A DNA stretch of 63,653 bases, the filler included, from Asterionella formosa (lineage: Eukaryota): assembly GCA_002256025.1 (NCBI GenBank). It is 22 parts of 22 records of this genome, joined end to end, with 100 filler letters (N's around TTAATTAATTAA, not from the genome) between each part and the next. Parts side by side here need not be neighbours in the genome. Positions count along the whole stretch, not along the records: positions 46,403 to 49,197 come from NKIB01014816.1; 21 more parts are not named here. One strand, 5' to 3'. The position numbers were made by a program, and so were the translations under genes. The notes beneath the pieces were generated by a model. It had not been told where the DNA came from. It worked only from the letters and a program-made list of their open reading frames with translations, and ran no database searches. Of this stretch, positions 14,521 to 48,196 are shown one piece after another (position 1 is the first letter of the stretch; every line of letters starts with the position of its first letter).

Positions 14521-14888
14521 GGAAAAAAGGTAGTTTGAATCGTGCTGATTATTTCACTAAACATCATCCCGCTTCCCATCATATGTTGATGCGCCCGCAC
14601 TATCTCCATTGCCCTCCATCCCTCCCTAGTCCTCCTAACTATTATGCGTGCTTGGCTTCCGATGCTGATATCATCTCCACCCCCGCTCCTGTTCTTCTGC
14701 CTGAATCTGCTGGTGAGGGTGTGTTAATATCTGCATATGATGCTCCATACATGCGCCGTACAAACCATACCGGCGCAGCCACCAGATTAGGTACATGCGT
14801 GAGTGCTAACAACGATGTACTTGGAACAGCAATAGAATAGTCATAATATTGTAGTTCACCTTTATTCACGATAAGGTTCCCCTCAACA
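14521..14888 (+). mobile_element. Ty1/Copia (CoDi-like) 3' end: RNase H C-terminus, PPT and 167-bp LTR (14722-14888)
   Basis: NRADYFTKHH motif, purine tract GGTGAGGGTG, LTR TGTTAA...TCAACA. The LTR differs from the one at 46796-46962 at only two positions. Confidence 0.9.
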
Positions 14889-26021: not shown

Positions 26022-26960
26022 NNNNNNNNNNNNNNNNNNNNNNNNNNNNNNNNNNNNNNNNNNNNTTAATTAATTAANNNNNNNNNNNNNNNNNNNNNNN
26101 NNNNNNNNNNNNNNNNNNNNNATCAATATCTTCGAGTACCTGCCCGGCAATGGTGCGTAGTTGTAACAATGACATTGCTGGTATGGTCATATAGCGTCAC
26201 AAGCACTCCGACTAAGTTGGTATCACCACTGTCATTGTTGTCTGTATCCTCCTTGACACAGCCGGAAATTGAGCCAAGTTTCTGTGCACTAGGAGCAGGA
26301 CTGATGACGGGCTGAAGACCTGGACGTCCTGGAGGGGCGTAAAAATGAACTTTCCAGCACTGTCCTTTAACGTCGTCATTGCAGGGTTGTTGTGCTGTTG
26401 ACTTCTTTGTGGCTTGCCATCGCCTGTGATGCGAAGCAAGTCAGCTGCCAGCGCTTTGGTCCGATGAGATTGACCCACCAGCAGCATGTGCAAATCATTA
26501 GCAGAAATAATTTCCGTTCGGAAAATATTTCTGCTGCCAGTTCCATCATGTTTGCAAGTGTCATGGAGGAGTCAACTAAGATTCGTGTGGCAAAAAAGTA
26601 TTGGTGGTTTATACGAAGATTATGTAGGCTAGTAGGGTTTAAGGGGTTATCAAAAAGAGGGGGACGAAATATCGATATAGGGGGACGAAATATCTTTTTC
26701 CTATAATTATTATTACGTTAGACAAAAATTCCAGGATAGGAATGACTGAAAGAATGTGGAGCTTTCATGTACTGTAGAATTCAACGAGAGGAAGTTGAAG
26801 AACTCAAGAATTAGTTCAAACACGACCAGGACAGAGAAAAACCATAGGCAAATCAAAGCATGTAAAATTCGTAGGAGGTCTATAAAAAGAATTACATTCA
26901 TCTTGTGCAGCACGATCAAAACACACCACGAAAAATAAAGCGTCCTTTCATAAATCAACC

Positions 26961-28457
26961 ATGGCGATGAATACCGCCCCTGCTTTTGTCGCCCCTACCT
27001 ACCATCATGCTCAAATTGTAAATGAGCATGGCGTACAAGCAGAGTTCGCAAGGAAAGGACTCTGTCGTTATCATCCAGACATTCAGCTTCGCCAAAAGAA
27101 ATGGAATGGAGTTTGGACGACTGTGCGAGGCAGCTGCCCTAGATGCGATCGTCTTGCAACCCAAATTCCAAGCCTTTTTAGTTCTTCTCAGATTGCTGCG
27201 ATTCTTTTAACGATGAAAAATAATGAGCGGAATGCTGACATTCAAATAAAAGGTTGTTCAGAACTTTGTGACTTGGCTTATAATAATGACAAGAACCAGG
27301 TAACGATTGCTGAAGCAGGAGGTATCACTACGATTCTGTCTGCAATGAAGACTCATTCCTCCAATGCTACTGTGCAAGTGAATGGTTGTGGAGCACTTCT
27401 GTGCTTGGCTTATCCTAATAAAAAGAACCAGGAAACGATTGCTGACGCACGAGGTATCACCACGATTCTGTCTGCAATGAAGACTCATTCCTCCAATGCT
27501 AATGTGCAATAAAATGGTTGTGGAGCACTTCTGTGCTTGGCTTATCTTAATGAAAAGAACCAGGTAACGATTGCTGAAGCAGGAGGTATCACTACGATTC
27601 TATCTGCAATGAAGACTCATTCCTCAAATGCTTATGTGCAAGAAAATGGTTGTGTAGCACTTTGGTACTTGGCTTATCTTAATGAAAACAACAGGGTGAC
27701 GATTGCTGAAGCAGGAGGTATCACTAGGATTCTTTCTGCAATGAAGACTCATTCCTCCAATGCTAATGTGCAAGAGAATGGTTGTGGAGCACTTAGGAAC
27801 TTGGCTGTTAATGACAAGAACCAGGTAACGATTGCTGAAGCAGGAGGTATCACTACGATTCTGTCTGCAATGAAGACTCATTACTCCAAAGCTAATGTGC
27901 AAGAAAATGGTTGTGGAGCACTTAAGAACTTGGCTGAGAATGAAAACAACAGGGTGACGATTGCTGAAGCAGGAGGTATCACTACGATTCTGTCTGCAAT
28001 GCAGACTCATTCCTCCAATGCTAATGTGCAAGAGTATGGTTGTGGAGCACTTAAGAACTTGGCTGCGAATAATGACAAGAACAAGGTGACGATTGCTGAA
28101 GCAGGAGGTATCACTATGATTCTGTCTGCAATGAAGACTCATTCCTCCAATGCTACTGTGCAAGTGAATGGTTGTGGAGCACTTTGGAACTTGGCTTTGA
28201 ATGAAAACAACAAGGTGACGATGGCTGAAGCAGGAGGTATCACTATGATTCTGTCTGCAATGAAGACTCATTCCTCCAATGCTAATGTACAAGAGTGTGG
28301 TTGTGGAGCACTTAAGAACTTGGCTGCGAATGAAAACAATAGGGTGAAAATATTCAATGCTGGTGGAAAAGCCGTAATTGAGTCTGCGATGCGAAATTAC
28401 TCATCCAATGCTGGTGTTCAAGAAAAAGGTAAAGCAGCACTTTGCAATTTGTGGTAA
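26961..28457 (+). pseudogene. Armadillo-repeat protein (9 repeats plus cap) with N-terminal CxxH...CxxC domain; single in-frame stop
   Basis: 43-44-aa units NANVQxxGCGALxxLAx(x)NxxNxVTIAEAGGITTILSAMKTHSS. The two ORFs are in the same frame, separated by TAA 27510-27512 where most other repeats have a Glu codon. Confidence 0.9.
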
Positions 28458-29019: not shown

Positions 29020-31817
29020 CCATATAAGAAGGCATTCCCAATATCAGCAGCACAAATGTCTAGGTGGTTTATGGCAGCAATTAGGAATCCCATACGAACA
29101 GTGTCCATCCCAACAACTCCTGAGTATATGTCTTCTTTGGGTGGATTGGTTTGATGTCCTCCTGCAACTAGCCTTGCTTTCCTCCTTAGATCAAATTTGA
29201 CGTCGAATATTATCTGGTATGGGATTTGTTTGTACCCTGCTGGTAATTCATGTTCTGATACCTCTCGAAACGTATTGTATTCATTGATCTGTTTCAATTC
29301 CATGTCTATGGCGGTTCTCCATAAGTTATCATGATTCATCTCATCTAGATGTAATGCATGTTTTACTGATGAAGGGACTTCCACTCCAAACTTATATCTT
29401 GGTTCATCACGAGTTGCTTTCATGATTTGTATTATTGCATGCAAGCTTGTATTGGGTTCAAGGTATTCTTTCACCCATATCCATTCATCTAGATGGCATA
29501 ACCGTTTTTGTATTGCGTATTTTATCAACACCATAGGGTCCTGTAACCTCATTGATTCCATTGTAACCCATCCAGTGTCTCCATTCATCCATTGTATATT
29601 TATTGGTACTGAGTTGCCTGTAGGGTCATGCTTCTTGGATCTGTGGTTAAGTACTTTTAAGGGTGTCCACATGTCATCATCATACTCTTGTGTTGCCAGT
29701 TTGTCAATGTTCCGGTGATATTCTTGTAACTGTTTAATATTTTTTCTGTCATGTACTTGTTTTCCTTGTTGTTTTTCATTGCATATTTCATCTTGTGCAG
29801 TTATTTGTCCGTAGATGTCACCTTCATAGTTGCTAAAAATACTCATCTTGTTTATTTCTTCTTTGTCATCCTGTGGGCAATTCACAGCTGTCATTATATA
29901 ATGAGGATTAGGCATGCGTTTCCTAATTGACTTCCTAATGTTTGATATCTTTTGTTCCACATGTGCCACCTCCCCTTTCTCCTGTTCTCTAATCTCCCCT
30001 GTCTCTTGCACTGTGTGTATTGGACTCTCATGCATTACTTTTGGTATCTCTTGTTCTGCTTCTACCTCTTGTTCTGTATGTAATACCTCCCTTGTCTCCT
30101 GTTCTCTAACCTCCCCTGTCTCTTGTGCTGTGCGTATTGGACTCTCACACGTTATTGCTCCCCTCGAAGTCGGTATTGTAACGCCAGGTGTCCTTTTGCG
30201 CTGGCGGGAAATGGTGGGTTTGACATGGGTGGGAGTGGAGTAGAACTGTAAAGCAGGTAAGGGGGCAAGAGGAGTTGTGTTGGCTACCGCAGGGTTGGTC
30301 ATGGGATTAAACTGTATGCGGTGATTGGGGTGGGCCGGGTCACATGGTCGGACAACACTGCGGTGTAGCACTTGTTGTGTATGGTCAGTGAGGATTTTGT
30401 AGGTCAGGATGTCCCCCACATGGTCTGTAATTCCAACCCAGTACCCAGGCTTTTCTTTAGTATCTGGATATACCTCTTGGTAGTCTAAGTAATACACTTT
30501 CTCATAAAACTGGAAGTGTAAGATTTTTTAGATATCAGGGGTGTCACCATGGCGTAGTGTGAGGGGAATCGCCCAATTGAGGGTCTCATCAGCACTATGG
30601 TTGTGTAAAGCAGCAAGGTACTGCGATGCTAGCAACCAAAGCATAGGAGGTGCTCCTGTTCGATCAAGTAGCAATTGGGTGTGTTGCTTCAACCATTTAA
30701 CTGCCCGTAACTCAGCCATGTTCTGCTGTGGATGGTATGGCTCCGTATATTCATCCCCAATCAGATACAAACGGTTGAGTTGTTGGAACCGGAAGCCAGA
30801 TTGGACATGTGAATTATCTCGACGTAAAATGGTGGGGCAACCTTCATGCCGCAGGAAATCGTTGTGAGCATCGGGGGCACCGTTTTCGGAAGGCATACCA
30901 TATACATTGATAACGTGGGACGTGATTCCATAAAAGACCTGTGCACAAGTAGCACCAGTAATGTCGCGGCAGTTGGCAAAGAATGTATCAGTTGCTACCT
31001 TCTCTTTGAGGCGTGGACGATTAGCTTGAGGAAAGCGGGATTTAATGTGGCGTCGAAGGGGATACCGGTATATAGCTTTAGCCAATTGTGTTGTGTTCGC
31101 CAAGGTATGGGAAATGACCTCAGTTGATTGGAATCCTAGGTATGGTCTGAGGGCATCAATGTTTGGATTGACTATGCGAGTAGTAAGGAGAGCATGGCAC
31201 ATTTTGTTAGGTTTCTCAGCTGCAAGATTTGGGTTTAATACCAAGCCCAAAGGGTTCTTGTATGTATCGAGGGTAGAGTCCAAGAGTACATATGGTGAGG
31301 TGCAGAGTTTATCGTCTTCCATGTGTACAATGTTATGTACCTGGACCGATATATCTTGCTGTAATGGCAGAAGTGATAAGCATTGGTCACTGTAGTGTGA
31401 GTTAGGATCCCAAGGGAAGTCTGCTGTGATATCGATAGGTGGCAATGATGTTAATTCTTGTTCTGTTGGTAACCGGTGTCTGAATGTCATAAGACCTCCA
31501 TTAATGATAAAAGGGATGTAGACATGAGGACGGGGAAGAAAACACTGTCCTCCTTTCCTGCCTGGTACGCTTGTTGGGTGCTTAGTGGAAATAGAATCAA
31601 CAATGCAGTCATGCTCTTGTAATTGAAACTCTGAGAGGAGGGTGGTAGAACTGCCTTGATTATACACAGCTTCATGTACACGGAGAAGGTATTTATTCCC
31701 TTGTGTCTCCACTACTGTTACCGCACTGACAATGGGCATTCCAGTTTTACGGGAAGCTTTTGCATCAAACCCGACAAGGTTGGCTTTTTGTGACGTGTAT
31801 GACTCAATATGCCATCC
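29020..31817 (-). mobile_element. pol: Ty1/Copia (CoDi-like) pol: protease end, integrase, chromo-like domain, RT start; one nonsense codon
   Basis: DTFF...RRDN...EPYHPQQNMAE (integrase), then KFGVEVP, IFDVKFDLRRKARLVAGGH, YSGVV and ADIGNAFLY (RT). The two ORFs are in frame across TAA 30528-30530 (TPDI*). Integrase precedes RT. Confidence 0.95.
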
Positions 31818-36132: not shown

Positions 36133-37167
36133 TCAATTCTCATGGTTCAATATTTGAAGTGCTCTTTCAGCTTTTGCTTTCACACCAGCATTGGCTGAGT
36201 GATTTCGCAAAGCAGAATCAACTGCGACTTTTACATCAGCATGGGCAATCGCCTCCTTGTTGCTGAGATTATTCACAGCCAAGGTGCCAAGTGCTGCACA
36301 ACCATAGTATTGCACATTTGCATTGAAGTAATAAGTCTTCATAGCAGACTGAATTGTGGTGATACCTCCTGCTTCGGCAATCGTCACCTTATTGTCTTCA
36401 TTCGCAGCCAAGTTCCAAAGTGCTGCACAACCATACTCTTGCATCTTGCACATTAGCATTGAATAAATGATTCTTCATTGCAGACAGAATCATAATGATA
36501 CCTCCTGCTGCAGCAATCCTCAACTTGTTGTTTTCATTATTGTCAGCCAATATACAAAGGGCTGCACAACCAGATTCTTGCACATTAGCATTGGATGAAT
36601 GCCTTTTCATCGCAGACAGAATGGTAGAGATACCTTCTTTTTTCGCAATCATGACCTCGTTGTTGTCATTCTCAACAAATTTCAAAAGCGCTCTACAACC
36701 ATATTCTTGTATGTCAGTATTCGTGGAATGATTATTCATCGCAGACAGAATGATACCTCCTGCTTCAGCAATCGTCATCCTATTGTTGTCACGATTGGCA
36801 GCCAAGTTCAAAAGGTCCATGAGACTTTCTTCTTGAATTTCAGCATTGGATGAATGATCCTTCATCGCGGACAGAATCAAATCAATCGGAGCCGAAATTG
36901 AAGTGGTTGGAATTTGGGTTGTAGACTGAGATTGTGTTGCTGGCAAAGAAGGAGACTGCTGAGGCATTGGAGTCGTTGGAGCAGTAGGCCTTGGGTATTC
37001 CTAAGATCGCATCTAGGGCAGCCCTCTCGCACAGTCTTCCAAAATCCAAACCAATTCTTTTTGCAAAGCTGAATGTCTGGATGATTAGGACAGAATCCAT
37101 TCCTAATGTGCTCTGCTTGTACGCCATGCTCATTCACGATTGAAGGGACGTGACGATTGAGTGACAT
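36133..37167 (-). pseudogene. ARM-repeat paralog of 26961-28457 with two frameshifts
   Basis: Same N-terminal domain (VNEHGVQAE...CPNHPDIQL.KK.W.G.W.TVR..CPRC) and about five ARM repeats. Frameshifts near 36990 and at a 7-nt TGCAAGA duplication near 36445. Confidence 0.88.
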
Positions 37168-46402: not shown

Positions 46403-46962
46403 CGTCTGGATGCCGGGATGTTCGGGCGGTACAAAGGGTTCACCGGCACGCAAGAGATAAGGAGCAGCAGCCATGACAATACCAAGGAAACCATTGGCAC
46501 CACCACCACTGGTACAGTGGACAGAGCGAGCGTTGGCAAAGAGTTCCTTGCGAAGGCGGGTTACAGTGAAGGCTGTAGGTTTGCCCTCGATCGGCGTCAA
46601 GAGCGGATGAGGGAAGGGGAAAACAGCGGAAACGATTGGAGTCGTCATGGTGGAAGAAGGCCTGAGAGACAGGGACAGCGAACGGGCAAGCGGTGCTGGA
46701 CGGTTGATTGTTGAGACCAGTGCTGGTTTGCACTGTCGACAAGACCCGCAACTTCGCAGGTGCGGACAAGAGAGAAAGAACAGATATTGTAGTTCTGTTG
46801 AGGGGAACCTTATCGTGAATAAAGGTGAACTACAATATTATGACTATTCTATTGCTGTTCCAAGTACATCGTTGTTAGCACTCATGCATGTACCTAATCT
46901 GGTGGCTGCGCCGGTATGGTTCGTACGGCGCATGTATGGAGCATCATATGCAGATATTAACA
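46403..46962 (-). mobile_element. gag: Ty1/Copia (CoDi-like) 5' end: 167-bp LTR (46796-46962), leader and gag start (ATG 46648)
   Basis: The LTR is nearly identical to 14722-14888. Gag N-terminus LTPIEGKPT...LRKELFANARSV...GGGANGFLG is open to the contig end. Confidence 0.9.
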
Positions 46963-47518
46963 AGTCGTACCTGGAGTTGAGGAAACATTGTATGGTGCCA
47001 CGTACCAGGTATTGTACCTGGTACCAGGTACCGGTAACCCTGGCATACTACCTGCTACCAGGTAACGTATTGCTTCGCTCCAGTGCATATTTTGTACCAC
47101 ATGCATCATGCACATGAAATGATGGCTTTTCGCCTTAATTCTTTTTGCTCCATTCTTCCGGGTTGTCATGAACCCACTTGGTTGTTTGTTTCTTTGGTCA
47201 CGTCCGGTAATACGGTTGCCCCTAGTATGAGGCCCAACGGGTGAACAATTCTTTTAGTCATTATGTCGCTGGTACTGGTACCAGGGACCCCCCTTCTTGG
47301 CTACTACCACCTGGTACCCCCTAAGATAGTTTGCGGTTTCAGCATCATGTCATGATTATTTTTTCTCAAACACGCTCACAAAAAGGGAAAAAATCAACAA
47401 CATATTGAACAAGTGTTAGCAGCCGCAACAAGAACTATGATAACTGTTGGAATACTCATGCGGTACGTTATCAGATCTTATGAAGAAGCCCCTGTGTGGC
47501 ATAATATGGTAGTGAGCG

Positions 47519-48196
47519 ATGGGCACTACAGACAATCTTTGCTTCTCCAATAATGTCAGTAACTCACAGTTGCTTATTCGCAACGTCTCTTCCAGGCCTC
47601 CTTTGATTTCCTATGCTTTCCTCTGTTTTTGTATTTTCTTGTTTGGGAATATTTTCTTCAAGCTGGAATCACTGATTTTTCGACCCATGAGGATGAATGC
47701 AATCCCATTAGAACAACACAATCTAGTTGAAATGGTCCCAAATTCGGCATTGTTTGTTGTATGCGGAATTATACCAGTTCTATGCTTTGCAGTTGATAGT
47801 GACGCCCTTACCAGATGCTGCACGCTGTTTCTAGCCATCGGACTTACAGGTTTTGTCACTGACTTTCTCAAGTTACTCTGTCCCCAAAGGAGGCCTAACT
47901 ATTACCAAATGGTGGAGTTTGATGAACAAAATGCAAACATGTCATTTCCTTCTGGTCACTCCAGCCTCGCCTTCACTGCCATGCTACTTTTATCACTAGA
48001 TCTTAAAGAAAAGTTCCGTAATGCACCATATTGCCTCACATTTAGCCCCATGTTGGTGGCACTCCTGGTTGCATGGAGCCGAGTCCATGATGGTTGGCAT
48101 TTTAATGTTGATGTTTGTGCTGGTGCTGTCATTGGCATTGCTTCTGTTATTATAACTTATCAAATATGGTATGTTATCAAATGTGATGTCTGTTAA
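47519..48196 (+). CDS. PAP2-superfamily lipid phosphate phosphatase
   Basis: All three catalytic motifs are present: KLLCPQRRP (Kx6RP), SFPSGH and SRVHDGWHFNVD (SRx5Hx3D). Several TM segments. The true 5' end is uncertain (possible intron). Confidence 0.9.
   Translation: MGTTDNLCFSNNVSNSQLLIRNVSSRPPLISYAFLCFCIFLFGNIFFKLESLIFRPMRMNAIPLEQHNLVEMVPNSALFVVCGIIPVLCFAVDSDALTRCCTLFLAIGLTGFVTDFLKLLCPQRRPNYYQMVEFDEQNANMSFPSGHSSLAFTAMLLLSLDLKEKFRNAPYCLTFSPMLVALLVAWSRVHDGWHFNVDVCAGAVIGIASVIITYQIWYVIKCDVC

What the first reader, a model, noticed from the sequence alone, without database searches (positions are those of the whole stretch)
46784..46838. Ty1/Copia element with a Tf1-style self-priming site instead of a tRNA PBS
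Seen: on the element strand, the 12 nt right after the 5' LTR (GAACTACAATAT, 46795-46784) are perfectly complementary to ATATTGTAGTTC inside the LTR (46838-46827). There is no TGG-type tRNA PBS. The same LTR on contig 6 follows a Copia RNase H end and PPT, and its 3' flank lacks the 12-mer, so the motif belongs to the element interior. Known: self-priming through complementarity between the PBS and the mRNA 5' end is established for the Tf1/sushi Gypsy group. I recall a similar suggestion for Phaeodactylum CoDi elements but cannot confirm it here. Inference: this young Copia family primes on its own transcript, with the TSS near 46838.
Basis: partly seen in the sequence, partly recalled or inferred. 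Interest (0 to 1): 0.78.

Follow-up and report, generated by a model that had tools for sequence, protein, structure and literature searches.

The report
Self-priming Copia-like retrotransposon of algae
A jumping gene from an algal sample seems to start copying itself by folding the start of its own RNA onto the spot where such elements normally bind a tRNA, and about 50 related elements from other samples keep the same pairing with different letters.

Summary
On contig 17 of this 22-contig window, a 167-nt LTR (46962-46796, minus strand) is followed at once by GAACTACAATAT. That 12-mer is the perfect complement of ATATTGTAGTTC inside the LTR, 31 nt upstream. None is expected by chance.

I collected 57 related loci through their Gag protein (23-99% identity). 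Both arm positions lie on the contig in 51 of them. Of these, 49 carry a perfect 9-14 bp inverted repeat at the same place, one has a single mismatch and one has none. There are 26 different arm pairs. Twelve of 14 pairs change on both sides. In the inner ten pairs, 259 of 260 cells are paired and only 2 are G.U.

The right arm starts at the first base after the LTR in all three families where the LTR end could be checked. No tRNA-type (TGG) site or shared block follows it. A conserved CATAA(T) motif lies 15-17 nt before the inner end of the LTR arm. One RNA-library contig snaps back exactly at 46838.

Pol has the Copia gene order (integrase before an RVT_2-type reverse transcriptase). Tf1-like self-priming is therefore well supported by comparison, though not shown biochemically. 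Self-priming has already been predicted for the plant Copia TAR lineage, so this is a new member of a known kind.

The parts
46796..46962 (-). 5' LTR, 167 nt, TGTTAA...TCAACA
   Evidence: 98.8% identical second copy on contig 6. Copies at 97.6-99.4% identity over all 167 nt in loci L001, L002, L003 and L026.
46839..46842 (-). CATA of the conserved CATAA(T) motif; candidate initiator/TSS. The A of CA (46841) lies 15 nt before the inner end of the LTR arm.
   Evidence: The motif is present at a constant 15-17 nt distance in all 26 representative families. Its function is inferred.
46827..46838 (-). LTR arm ATATTGTAGTTC, the proposed self-primer at the 5' end of the transcript
   Evidence: Perfect complement of 46784-46795. 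It covaries with the right arm across families. The snap-back joint lies at 46838.
46807..46826 (-). Small hairpin ACCTT-10 nt-AAGGT stacked on the long duplex (resembles a U5-IR stem-loop)
   Evidence: Present in the minimum-energy fold. Conserved in the families with 31-32-nt loops. As aligned, cell pairing is 71.8% over all 26 families.
46796..46806 (-). Last 11 nt of the LTR (TCCCCTCAACA), unpaired strand between the hairpin and the primer binding site
46784..46795 (-). Primer binding site GAACTACAATAT, starting at the first base after the LTR
   Evidence: Homologous right arms in 49 perfect and 1 one-mismatch loci out of 51.
46649..46783 (-). Untranslated leader, pyrimidine-rich at its start
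   Evidence: No TGG and no block shared between families.
46403..46648 (-). First 82 codons of gag, cut by the contig end
   Evidence: 100% identical to the N-terminus of the 362-aa protein P0002.
14523..14840 (+). C-terminal 105 codons of pol (RNase H end ..NRADYFTKHH..) plus the TAG stop; the frame runs 116 nt into the 3' LTR
   Evidence: 105 aa without a stop. Same C-terminus in the full-length pol of L003.
14712..14721 (+). Polypurine-like tract GGTGAGGGTG just before the 3' LTR
   Evidence: A similar GATGAGGGTG stands before an LTR in L009.
14722..14888 (+). 3' LTR (or solo LTR with pol remnant) of another copy of the same family; the LTR arm is at 14846-14857 and a non-complementary flank follows

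Best explanation
This is the 5' end of a short-LTR retrotransposon with Copia gene order that primes minus-strand DNA synthesis with its own transcript, as Tf1 does. Transcription is inferred to start at or a few nt upstream of 46838, at the conserved CATAA(T) motif. The first 15-17 nt of the RNA fold back over a 31-nt stretch that holds a small stacked hairpin. Their last 12 nt pair with the 12 nt that directly follow the LTR. A cut at the inner end of the duplex, between 46827 and 46826 (by the element's RNase H in Tf1), would leave a 3'-OH opposite the first base after the LTR. Reverse transcriptase would extend it into U5/R.

Shown here: the complementarity, its exact position at the LTR border, its conservation by compensatory change in some 26 sequence variants, and the absence of a tRNA-type site.

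Inferred: the TSS, the cleavage, and the use of the fragment as primer.
For: (1) Perfect 12-bp complement, with none expected by chance.
(2) 57 loci were found through Gag. Both arm positions lie on the contig in 51. Of these, 49 have a perfect 9-14 bp inverted repeat with a 20-52 nt loop at the homologous place, L025 has 1 mismatch in 12 and L007 has none. In 541 control windows of 350 nt from the same loci, a repeat of 9 bp or more occurs in 5.7% and of 11 bp or more in 2.2%.
(3) There are 26 distinct arm pairs. Twelve of 14 pairs change on both sides. The covariation score is 0.466 against 0.112 +/- 0.016 in shuffles (0 of 500 reach it) and 0.036-0.092 in slid registers.
(4) Pairing is almost purely Watson-Crick: in the inner ten pairs 259 of 260 cells are paired and only 2 are G.U. 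This fits a site that is re-copied from the primer each cycle, as I recall for Tf1, better than a stem kept by selection alone.
(5) The right arm starts at the first base after the LTR in the three families where a second LTR copy fixes the border: the window, L009 and L047.
(6) There is no TGG within 30 nt after the LTR in 25 of 26 representatives, and no 10-mer is shared by more than 5 of 26.
(7) Only the last 35-51 nt of the LTR (within positions 116-165), i.e. from just before the arm to the LTR end, is still alignable in 11 diverged loci.
(8) The duplex is in the minimum-energy fold in 13 of 13 folds, with z-scores of -3.4 to -7.3.
(9) In RNA run X17 an 84-nt contig (depth 82.8) lies on 46776-46838 and then continues with 18 letters. 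By eye, 14 of these match the leader read in the opposite sense. This is the product expected when a cDNA that ends at an RNA 5' end near 46838 folds back on the site and is extended.
(10) The family is held in 6 RNA libraries from 5 studies, one of them polyA-selected.
Against: No TSS, cleavage product or primer-linked cDNA has been seen, so everything mechanistic is inferred. The snap-back contig comes from one run and from a diverged relative (7 differences in 63 nt). Polymerase trimming or template switching at any hairpin could place the joint at the end of the complementarity even if the RNA began further upstream. If the TSS is the A of CATAA, then 3-6 nt at the 5' end stay unpaired, unlike Tf1, where nt 1-11 pair. 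R plus U5 would be only about 46 nt, and only 31 nt would remain after cleavage for the first strand transfer. The polyA site is unknown. L007 has no pairing. The inner end of the LTR arm (TAGCTC/TAGTTC) looks like the start of a tRNA D-arm, and host tRNAs could not be searched because no genome is held. RNA libraries can hold DNA, and RNA-run contigs do run from the LTR into different flanks.
Confidence: 0.75

Rival explanations
1. The duplex is a structural U5-leader stem, of the kind that flanks primer binding sites in retroviruses. It would help an unidentified primer (a tRNA fragment or another small RNA) anneal nearby, but would not itself be the primer.
For: Covariation shows that a duplex is selected, not what it does. 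A stacked small hairpin resembles retroviral U5-IR structures. Half-tRNA priming is known in other Copia lineages (PMC6317226). The arm's inner end, TAGCTC/TAGTTC, resembles a tRNA D-arm start (my reading).
Against: The right arm occupies the only position from which U5 can be copied completely, the first base after the LTR. No conserved block or TGG follows it. Its sequence differs between families at 12 of 14 positions, so one host RNA cannot fit all of them. Pairing is almost free of G.U.
Confidence: 0.13
2. The complementarity acts between two RNA copies. The 5' end of one genome pairs with the site after the LTR of the other, serving as a dimer linkage or packaging signal. Priming would then occur either in trans by the same pairing or by another route.
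For: The same sequence data fit pairing in cis or in trans. Palindrome-based dimer sites are known in retroviruses (mentioned in PMC5445492).
Against: The arms are not self-complementary palindromes. The short 20-52 nt loop with its own stacked hairpin favours an intramolecular fold, which is the minimum-energy structure in 13 of 13 folds. This reading does not supply a primer.
Confidence: 0.07
3. The inverted repeat works at the DNA level (promoter palindrome, integrase or host-factor site) or is a chance match.
For: The arm lies next to the presumed promoter and initiator in the LTR.
Against: Chance is excluded: 0 expected, and 49 of 51 loci against 5.7% of control windows. A protein-binding site would conserve sequence, not complementarity. 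Here the sequence changes and the pairing stays.
Confidence: 0.03

Closest known systems
Tf1/Tf2 of Schizosaccharomyces pombe and the Tf1/sushi group (Ty3/Gypsy), self-primed reverse transcription
   Same: A site directly after the 5' LTR is complementary to the start of the element's own RNA within the LTR. There is no tRNA site. A further small stem sits next to the duplex. In Tf1 the first 11 bases pair with the primer binding site and RNase H cuts between bases 11 and 12 (PMC7175516, passage read).
   Different: The gene order here is PR-INT-RT-RH with an RVT_2-type reverse transcriptase, so this is not a Gypsy/chromovirus element. The duplex is 9-14 bp. It probably starts 2-6 nt inside the RNA rather than at nt 1. 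The looped-out stretch is only 20-52 nt.
Plant Ty1/Copia TAR lineage (Houba, Osr-1), predicted self-priming
   Same: Copia-superfamily elements for which self-priming has been proposed from sequence (PMC6317226, passages read).
   Different: Those are land-plant elements. The pol here matches RVT_2 only weakly: 19-34 bits in 7 pol frames, with 1 above the 31.6-bit cut-off. Its source is algal and aquatic metagenomes. The relationship to TAR was not tested. I did not see that paper's supplementary data on the predicted sites.
Fungal GalEa Copia elements with a 'conserved hairpin site' in place of a PBS
   Same: Copia elements that lack a tRNA site and carry a conserved hairpin where the site should be (PMC5445492, passages read).
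   Different: In GalEa both arms lie after the LTR, the first is a palindrome that includes the last A of the LTR, and the authors found no complementary sequence in U5. Here one arm lies inside the LTR.
Diatom CoDi Copia lineages (e.g. Blackbeard)
   Same: Very short LTR: Blackbeard's is 163 bp and suffices to drive transcription, against 167 bp here. Both have separate gag (ORF1) and pol (ORF2) frames and an aquatic algal setting (PMC2806351, passages read).
   Different: Membership was not tested because no CoDi sequences are held. That paper's main text says nothing on priming.

Membership tests
Self-priming LTR retrotransposons (mechanistic class defined by Tf1) | The sequence directly after the 5' LTR is complementary to a sequence inside the same LTR | tested here: met
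   Perfect 12 bp in the window. 49 of 51 related loci are perfect and 1 has one mismatch. The LTR border was checked in 3 families.
Self-priming LTR retrotransposons (mechanistic class defined by Tf1) | The complementary sequence is the 5' end of the element's mRNA | tested here: inconclusive
   No TSS data. Indirect support: the snap-back joint at 46838 in one RNA run, and a conserved CATAA(T) 15-17 nt before the arm's inner end.
Self-priming LTR retrotransposons (mechanistic class defined by Tf1) | No tRNA-complementary primer binding site | tested here: met
   No TGG within 30 nt after the LTR in 25 of 26 representatives, and no shared 10-mer in more than 5 of 26. Host tRNAs were not available.
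Self-priming LTR retrotransposons (mechanistic class defined by Tf1) | RNase H cut at the end of the duplex releases the primer, and the primer sequence is inherited by the new copy | not testable with these tools
   Needs biochemistry or genetics. The nearly pure Watson-Crick pairing (2 G.U in 260 cells) is compatible with it.
Tf1/sushi clade of Ty3/Gypsy | Gene order PR-RT-RH-INT, with a Gypsy-type reverse transcriptase | tested here: not met
   The integrase core and its SH3-like domain (pol residues 441-497) precede RVT_2 (914-1030) and the RNase H end. The order is the same in L016.
Ty1/Copia (Pseudoviridae) | Gene order PR-INT-RT-RH | tested here: met
   Pol of L003, motifs read by eye: DSG, then the integrase D, D, E region, then VVDD, then DAS...ADYFTKHH. 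Pfam gives the order SH3_retrovirus then RVT_2.
Ty1/Copia (Pseudoviridae) | Reverse transcriptase of the RVT_2 (PF07727) type | tested here: met
   RVT_2 is the only RT family hit in 7 pol frames from 7 loci (19-34 bits). Only L013, at 34.0 bits, exceeds the 31.6-bit cut-off. All 30 Atlas feature hits carry RVT_2. The match is weak, so this is a divergent branch.
CoDi lineages of diatoms | Placement of the RT domain inside CoDiI/CoDiII in a tree with reference elements | not testable with these tools
   No reference CoDi sequences or eukaryotic genomes are held.
Fungal GalEa 'conserved hairpin site' | Both hairpin arms lie downstream of the LTR, with a palindromic first arm that includes the LTR's last A | tested here: not met
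   The left arm lies inside the LTR, 20-52 nt before its end.

The most novel reading that the evidence does not exclude
A whole, old and widespread clade of Copia-order retrotransposons of aquatic protists uses self-priming as its ancestral mode. The clade spans at least 26 sequence variants, Gag identity down to 23%, and marine, estuarine, lake and river samples. The primer would have a fixed length of 15-17 nt, set by a conserved cap-proximal AUAAU motif rather than by the length of the duplex. That would be either an origin of self-priming independent of Tf1/sushi, or evidence that self-priming predates the Copia/Gypsy split. It would also come with a natural record of primer-to-site sequence transfer, visible as near-perfect Watson-Crick covariation.
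Probability: 0.45. Interest if true: 0.7.

Novelty: new member of a known kind. Interest (0 to 1): 0.55.

Why it matters
Self-priming has been shown experimentally only in the fission-yeast Tf1 element; elsewhere it has been inferred from single sequences. This case offers a comparative data set of about 50 loci and 26 arm variants in which the pairing is kept while the letters change. That is far stronger than single-element complementarity. It extends the mechanism to a divergent Copia-order clade that is abundant and present in RNA libraries from natural algal communities.

It has a practical use: annotation pipelines that look for tRNA sites will mis-call or miss these elements. It also gives testable predictions: the TSS position, a 15-17 nt primer, a cut at the inner end of the duplex, and a very short R. 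If it holds, it bears on how often retroelements have escaped dependence on host tRNAs.

Tried and rejected
- The whole genome is not held, so neither all family copies in the host nor host tRNAs could be searched.
- ARAGORN found no tRNA gene in the window, and Rfam found no family there.
- The 35-sequence Gag alignment was too diverged for the search for related loci, so I used a 12-sequence alignment instead.
- Pfam finds no family for Gag. The PDB sequence search of pol gave only one chance-level hit.
- Contig 11 (Copia-like INT-RT piece) is not part of this family: there is no DNA match and no Gag match.
- I looked for contigs that begin at the presumed TSS; none does.
- Read-laying runs on contigs only, so it gives no read starts, no polyA loose end and no usable depth. 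77 'other letter' rows and 18 loose ends were not shown, so I make no claim about variation inside 46784-46838 in those runs.
- An RNA contig of a diverged relative (X17 record 16, 2839 nt) stops about 4 nt beyond 46844. This could be a graph branch and was not interpreted.
- RNA-run contigs that bridge the whole LTR, or run into flanks, show read-through or DNA in those libraries, so R could not be delimited.
- CATAA is not generally the pol stop codon. In L016 and L018 the pol frame ends about 75 and 115 nt upstream of it.
- The tRNA 5'-part reading of the TAGCTC arm end was rejected because the rest of the arm is AT-rich, varies between families, and is tracked by the LTR arm.
- Papers PMC1369541 and PMC1563812 are not held.
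- Earlier-findings look-ups returned nothing.

Full report
**What the window is.** The 63,653-base window is not one stretch of genome. It is 22 contigs of about 2.8 kb joined by N44-TTAATTAATTAA-N44 spacers. No whole genome is held. The best DNA holder among public runs is labelled an algae metagenome.

**The observation.** On the minus strand, one search shows the following order:
- ...GTCATA
- ATATTGTAGTTC (46838-46827)
- ACCTTTATTCACGATAAGGTTCCCCTCAACA (46826-46796)
- GAACTACAATAT (46795-46784)
- a pyrimidine-rich leader
- a gag start codon at 46648

The contig ends at 46403, after 82 Gag codons. BLAST of contig 17 against all 22 contigs finds one other match, on contig 6, at 98.8% over 170 nt.

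The alignment defines a 167-nt LTR, TGTTAATATC...CCCCTCAACA, at 46962-46796 and 14722-14888. On contig 6 the LTR follows a pol C-terminus (..NRADYFTKHHPASHH..) whose frame runs into the LTR and stops at 14838-14840. It also follows GGTGAGGGTG, a polypurine-like tract. Its 3' flank is unrelated to the 12-mer.

Both LTR copies happen to be followed by GAA, which leaves a 3-nt ambiguity of the border from these two copies alone. The 12-mer occurs three times in the window (the site itself, and as complement in both LTRs), against 0 in 100 shuffles.

**What the element is.** The Gag fragment is 100% identical to the start of a 362-aa protein known only from metagenomes. That protein has 54 relatives at E of 0.001 or better; none carries an informative name and none has a precomputed Pfam domain.

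A Gag alignment (A3) retrieved 57 loci from public metagenome contigs, with 23-99% identity to the query. Three of them (L001-L003) are near-identical, essentially full-length copies of about 5.4 kb.

In L003, gag (362 codons) ends in TGA and a 1356-codon pol frame follows in the same frame. In pol I read, by eye, in this order:
- a DSG protease motif
- an integrase core
- a VVDD reverse-transcriptase motif
- an RNase H with DAS...ADYFTKHH

Pfam places SH3_retrovirus (residues 441-497) before RVT_2 (914-1030). RVT_2 is the only RT family hit in 7 pol frames from 7 loci (19-34 bits, with one above the 31.6-bit cut-off). All 30 Atlas feature hits carry RVT_2. So the element has Copia gene order and a Copia-type but divergent reverse transcriptase. 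It is not a member of the Tf1/sushi Gypsy clade.

The family is held in 20 of 24 listed runs from 15 studies, covering algal, marine, estuarine, lake, river and freshwater samples. Six of these are RNA libraries from five studies.

**Comparative test of the pairing.** I searched the 350 nt upstream of gag in each locus for perfect inverted repeats. The 57 loci break down as follows:
- 3 have too little upstream DNA (L004, L030, L043).
- 2 contigs begin inside or after the loop, so only the right arm is present (L019, L023).
- 1 has non-homologous upstream DNA (L024).
- 51 have both arm positions on the contig. Of these, 49 carry a perfect 9-14 bp repeat with a 20-52 nt loop at the homologous place, L025 has the same hairpin with one mismatch in 12, and L007 has no pairing.

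In 541 control windows of 350 nt from the same loci, a perfect repeat of 9 bp or more (loop 15-60) occurs in 5.7% and of 11 bp or more in 2.2%.

The arms differ between families. There are 26 distinct arm pairs, for example TTTATCTAGCTC/GAGCTAGATAAA, CGTCTAGTTC/GAACTAGACG, AATTTAGTCAAGTA/TACTTGACTAAATT and TTACTAAGTTG/CAACTTAGTAA.

On an alignment of 26 representatives (A4), the count of structure pairs gives these results:

| Measure | Result |
|---|---|
| Pairs changed on both sides | 12 of 14 |
| Covariation score, observed | 0.466 |
| Covariation score, shuffled | 0.112 +/- 0.016 (0 of 500 reach the observed value) |
| Covariation score, slid registers | 0.036-0.092 |
| Inner ten pairs, cells paired | 259 of 260 |
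| Inner ten pairs, G.U cells | 2 |

The RNA fold places the duplex in the minimum-energy structure in all 13 sequences folded, with z-scores of -3.4 to -7.3. In the families with 31-32-nt loops, a 5-bp hairpin (ACCUU...AAGGU) is stacked directly on it.

**Position relative to the LTR.** A second LTR copy that fixes the LTR end is available in three families:
- The window: contig 6 against contig 17.
- L009, where an upstream LTR copy ends at ...CAATA and then diverges.
- L047, where the 3' LTR ends ...ACAATA followed by flank, and the 5' LTR ends ...ACAACA followed by CAACTTAGTA.

In all three the right arm starts at the first base after the LTR. For the other families the border is inferred from the CA/TA end of the loop.

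After the LTR there is no TGG within 30 nt in 25 of 26 representatives, and no 10-mer is shared by more than 5 of 26. A conserved tRNA site is therefore absent. Arms that differ at 12 of 14 positions cannot all fit one conserved host RNA.

**Where the RNA starts.** This is inferred, not shown.

First, all 26 representatives carry CATAA(T) or CATTAA just upstream of the left arm. The A of CA lies 15-17 nt from the arm's inner end whatever the duplex length. A pyrimidine-A start inside a conserved motif fits a polymerase II initiator; that reading rests on general knowledge, not on a call. In diverged families only the part of the LTR from about this motif to the LTR end is still alignable: 11 loci, matches within LTR positions 116-165.

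Second, in RNA run X17 an 84-nt contig (depth 82.8) lies on 46776-46838 and then continues with CTGTTCTTCCTCCCTTTG. By eye, this matches 14 of 18 letters of the leader that follows the site on the opposite strand. That is a snap-back whose joint lies exactly at the outer end of the complementarity. A 12-nt repeat is too short to mis-join a 31-mer assembly graph, so reads must carry this joint.

The simplest origin is a first-strand cDNA that reached an RNA 5' end at or near 46838, folded back on the site and was extended. Exonuclease trimming or template switching could give the same joint from a longer RNA. The contig also comes from a diverged relative in a single run. I count it as a hint only.

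**Mechanism proposed.**
- Transcription starts at 46838-46841.
- The first 15-17 nt fold back, and nt 4-15 pair with 46795-46784.
- A cut at the inner end (46827/46826) gives a 3'-OH opposite the first base after the LTR.
- Extension copies the 31-nt stretch up to the new template end, and this short strong-stop DNA transfers to the 3' R.

This is the Tf1 scheme, in which the first 11 bases pair with the primer binding site and RNase H cuts between bases 11 and 12 (PMC7175516, passage read). The near absence of G.U pairs and mismatches fits a site that is rewritten from the primer at each cycle.

Open points: the unpaired conserved 5' AUAAU, the very short R plus U5 (about 46 nt), the unknown polyA site, and the exception L007.

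**Comparison with what is known.** Searches for self-priming together with copia or LTR retrotransposon and diatom gave two papers, neither about algal elements.
- Maumus et al. 2009 (PMC2806351) does not mention primer binding, priming or tRNA in its main text. Its supplements could not be opened. It does report a 163-bp LTR for the CoDi element Blackbeard and separate ORF1/ORF2 frames, which resembles this element.
- Neumann et al. 2019 (PMC6317226, passages read) state that self-priming has been proposed for the plant Copia families Houba and Osr-1 and predict it for the TAR lineage. 'Self-priming Copia' is therefore not new as a kind.
- Donnart et al. 2017 (PMC5445492, passages read) describe fungal GalEa Copia elements with a conserved hairpin in place of a PBS but without an LTR complement. 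That is a different anatomy.

I therefore rate this a new member of a known kind, with unusually strong comparative support and a few distinctive traits.

**Verdict.** I put confidence in self-priming at 0.75. The main rival, at 0.13, is a structural stem that serves an unknown primer. Interest is 0.55.

Noticed in passing
window 1-63653: The window is a concatenation of 22 contigs of 2785-2806 bases, roughly sorted by length, joined by N44-TTAATTAATTAA-N44 spacers. Neighbouring contigs are not neighbours in a genome.
   Followed up: yes
L003:1516-1545, and the gag ends of L001, L005-L008, L011-L015, L019, L029-L033, L036, L040-L042: Gag ends in a single stop codon (TGA, TAG or TAA) and pol follows in the same frame. 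Six nt after the stop there is usually a conserved GGGGAG-like block (e.g. TGAtgtggaGGGGAG, TAGgagcgaGGGGAG). This suggests stop-codon read-through for gag-pol, which is unusual for Copia-order elements.
   Followed up: partly
window 14722-14840 (+): The pol reading frame runs about 116 nt into the 3' LTR and stops at a TAG (with an in-frame TAA 6 nt later), just before the CATAA motif. Most of U3 is therefore coding.
   Followed up: partly
window 29022-31817 (-), contig 11: Two long open frames (429 and 502 aa) with a weak RVT_2 match at the end: a piece of another Copia-like element. It is unrelated at the DNA level to the element of the finding.
   Followed up: partly
window 47516-48193 (+): A PAP2-superfamily phosphatase frame lies about 550 nt from the 5' LTR, in divergent orientation. 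It is the presumed host gene next to the insertion.
   Followed up: no
window 26886-28454 (+) and 36262-37000 (-): Armadillo-repeat protein frames. The second one explains the 126-136 nt direct repeats found.
   Followed up: no
L009:615-810: A diverged LTR copy is followed by only 15 nt (ATCTTGATGAGGGTG, polypurine-like) and then by the 5' LTR of a complete element. This is an LTR-PPT-LTR arrangement, perhaps the product of a deletion or an aberrant strand transfer.
   Followed up: no
L001, L002, L013, L014, L043 (contig ends): The two ends of these contigs repeat each other (periods about 5.3-5.6 kb), i.e. circularly permuted one-LTR assemblies. This could be assembly wrap-around through the LTR or real one-LTR circles.
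   Followed up: no
L007:1-60: This is the only locus with both arm positions on the contig and no pairing. The contig begins 14 nt before the loop, and the 12 nt at the site position are GC-rich and unrelated. It may be a chimeric contig start or a variant with another priming mode.
   Followed up: partly
L056:1-2418: A Ku70/Ku80-type protein frame with a SAP domain lies upstream of a related element, which shows a eukaryotic host for that relative.
   Followed up: no
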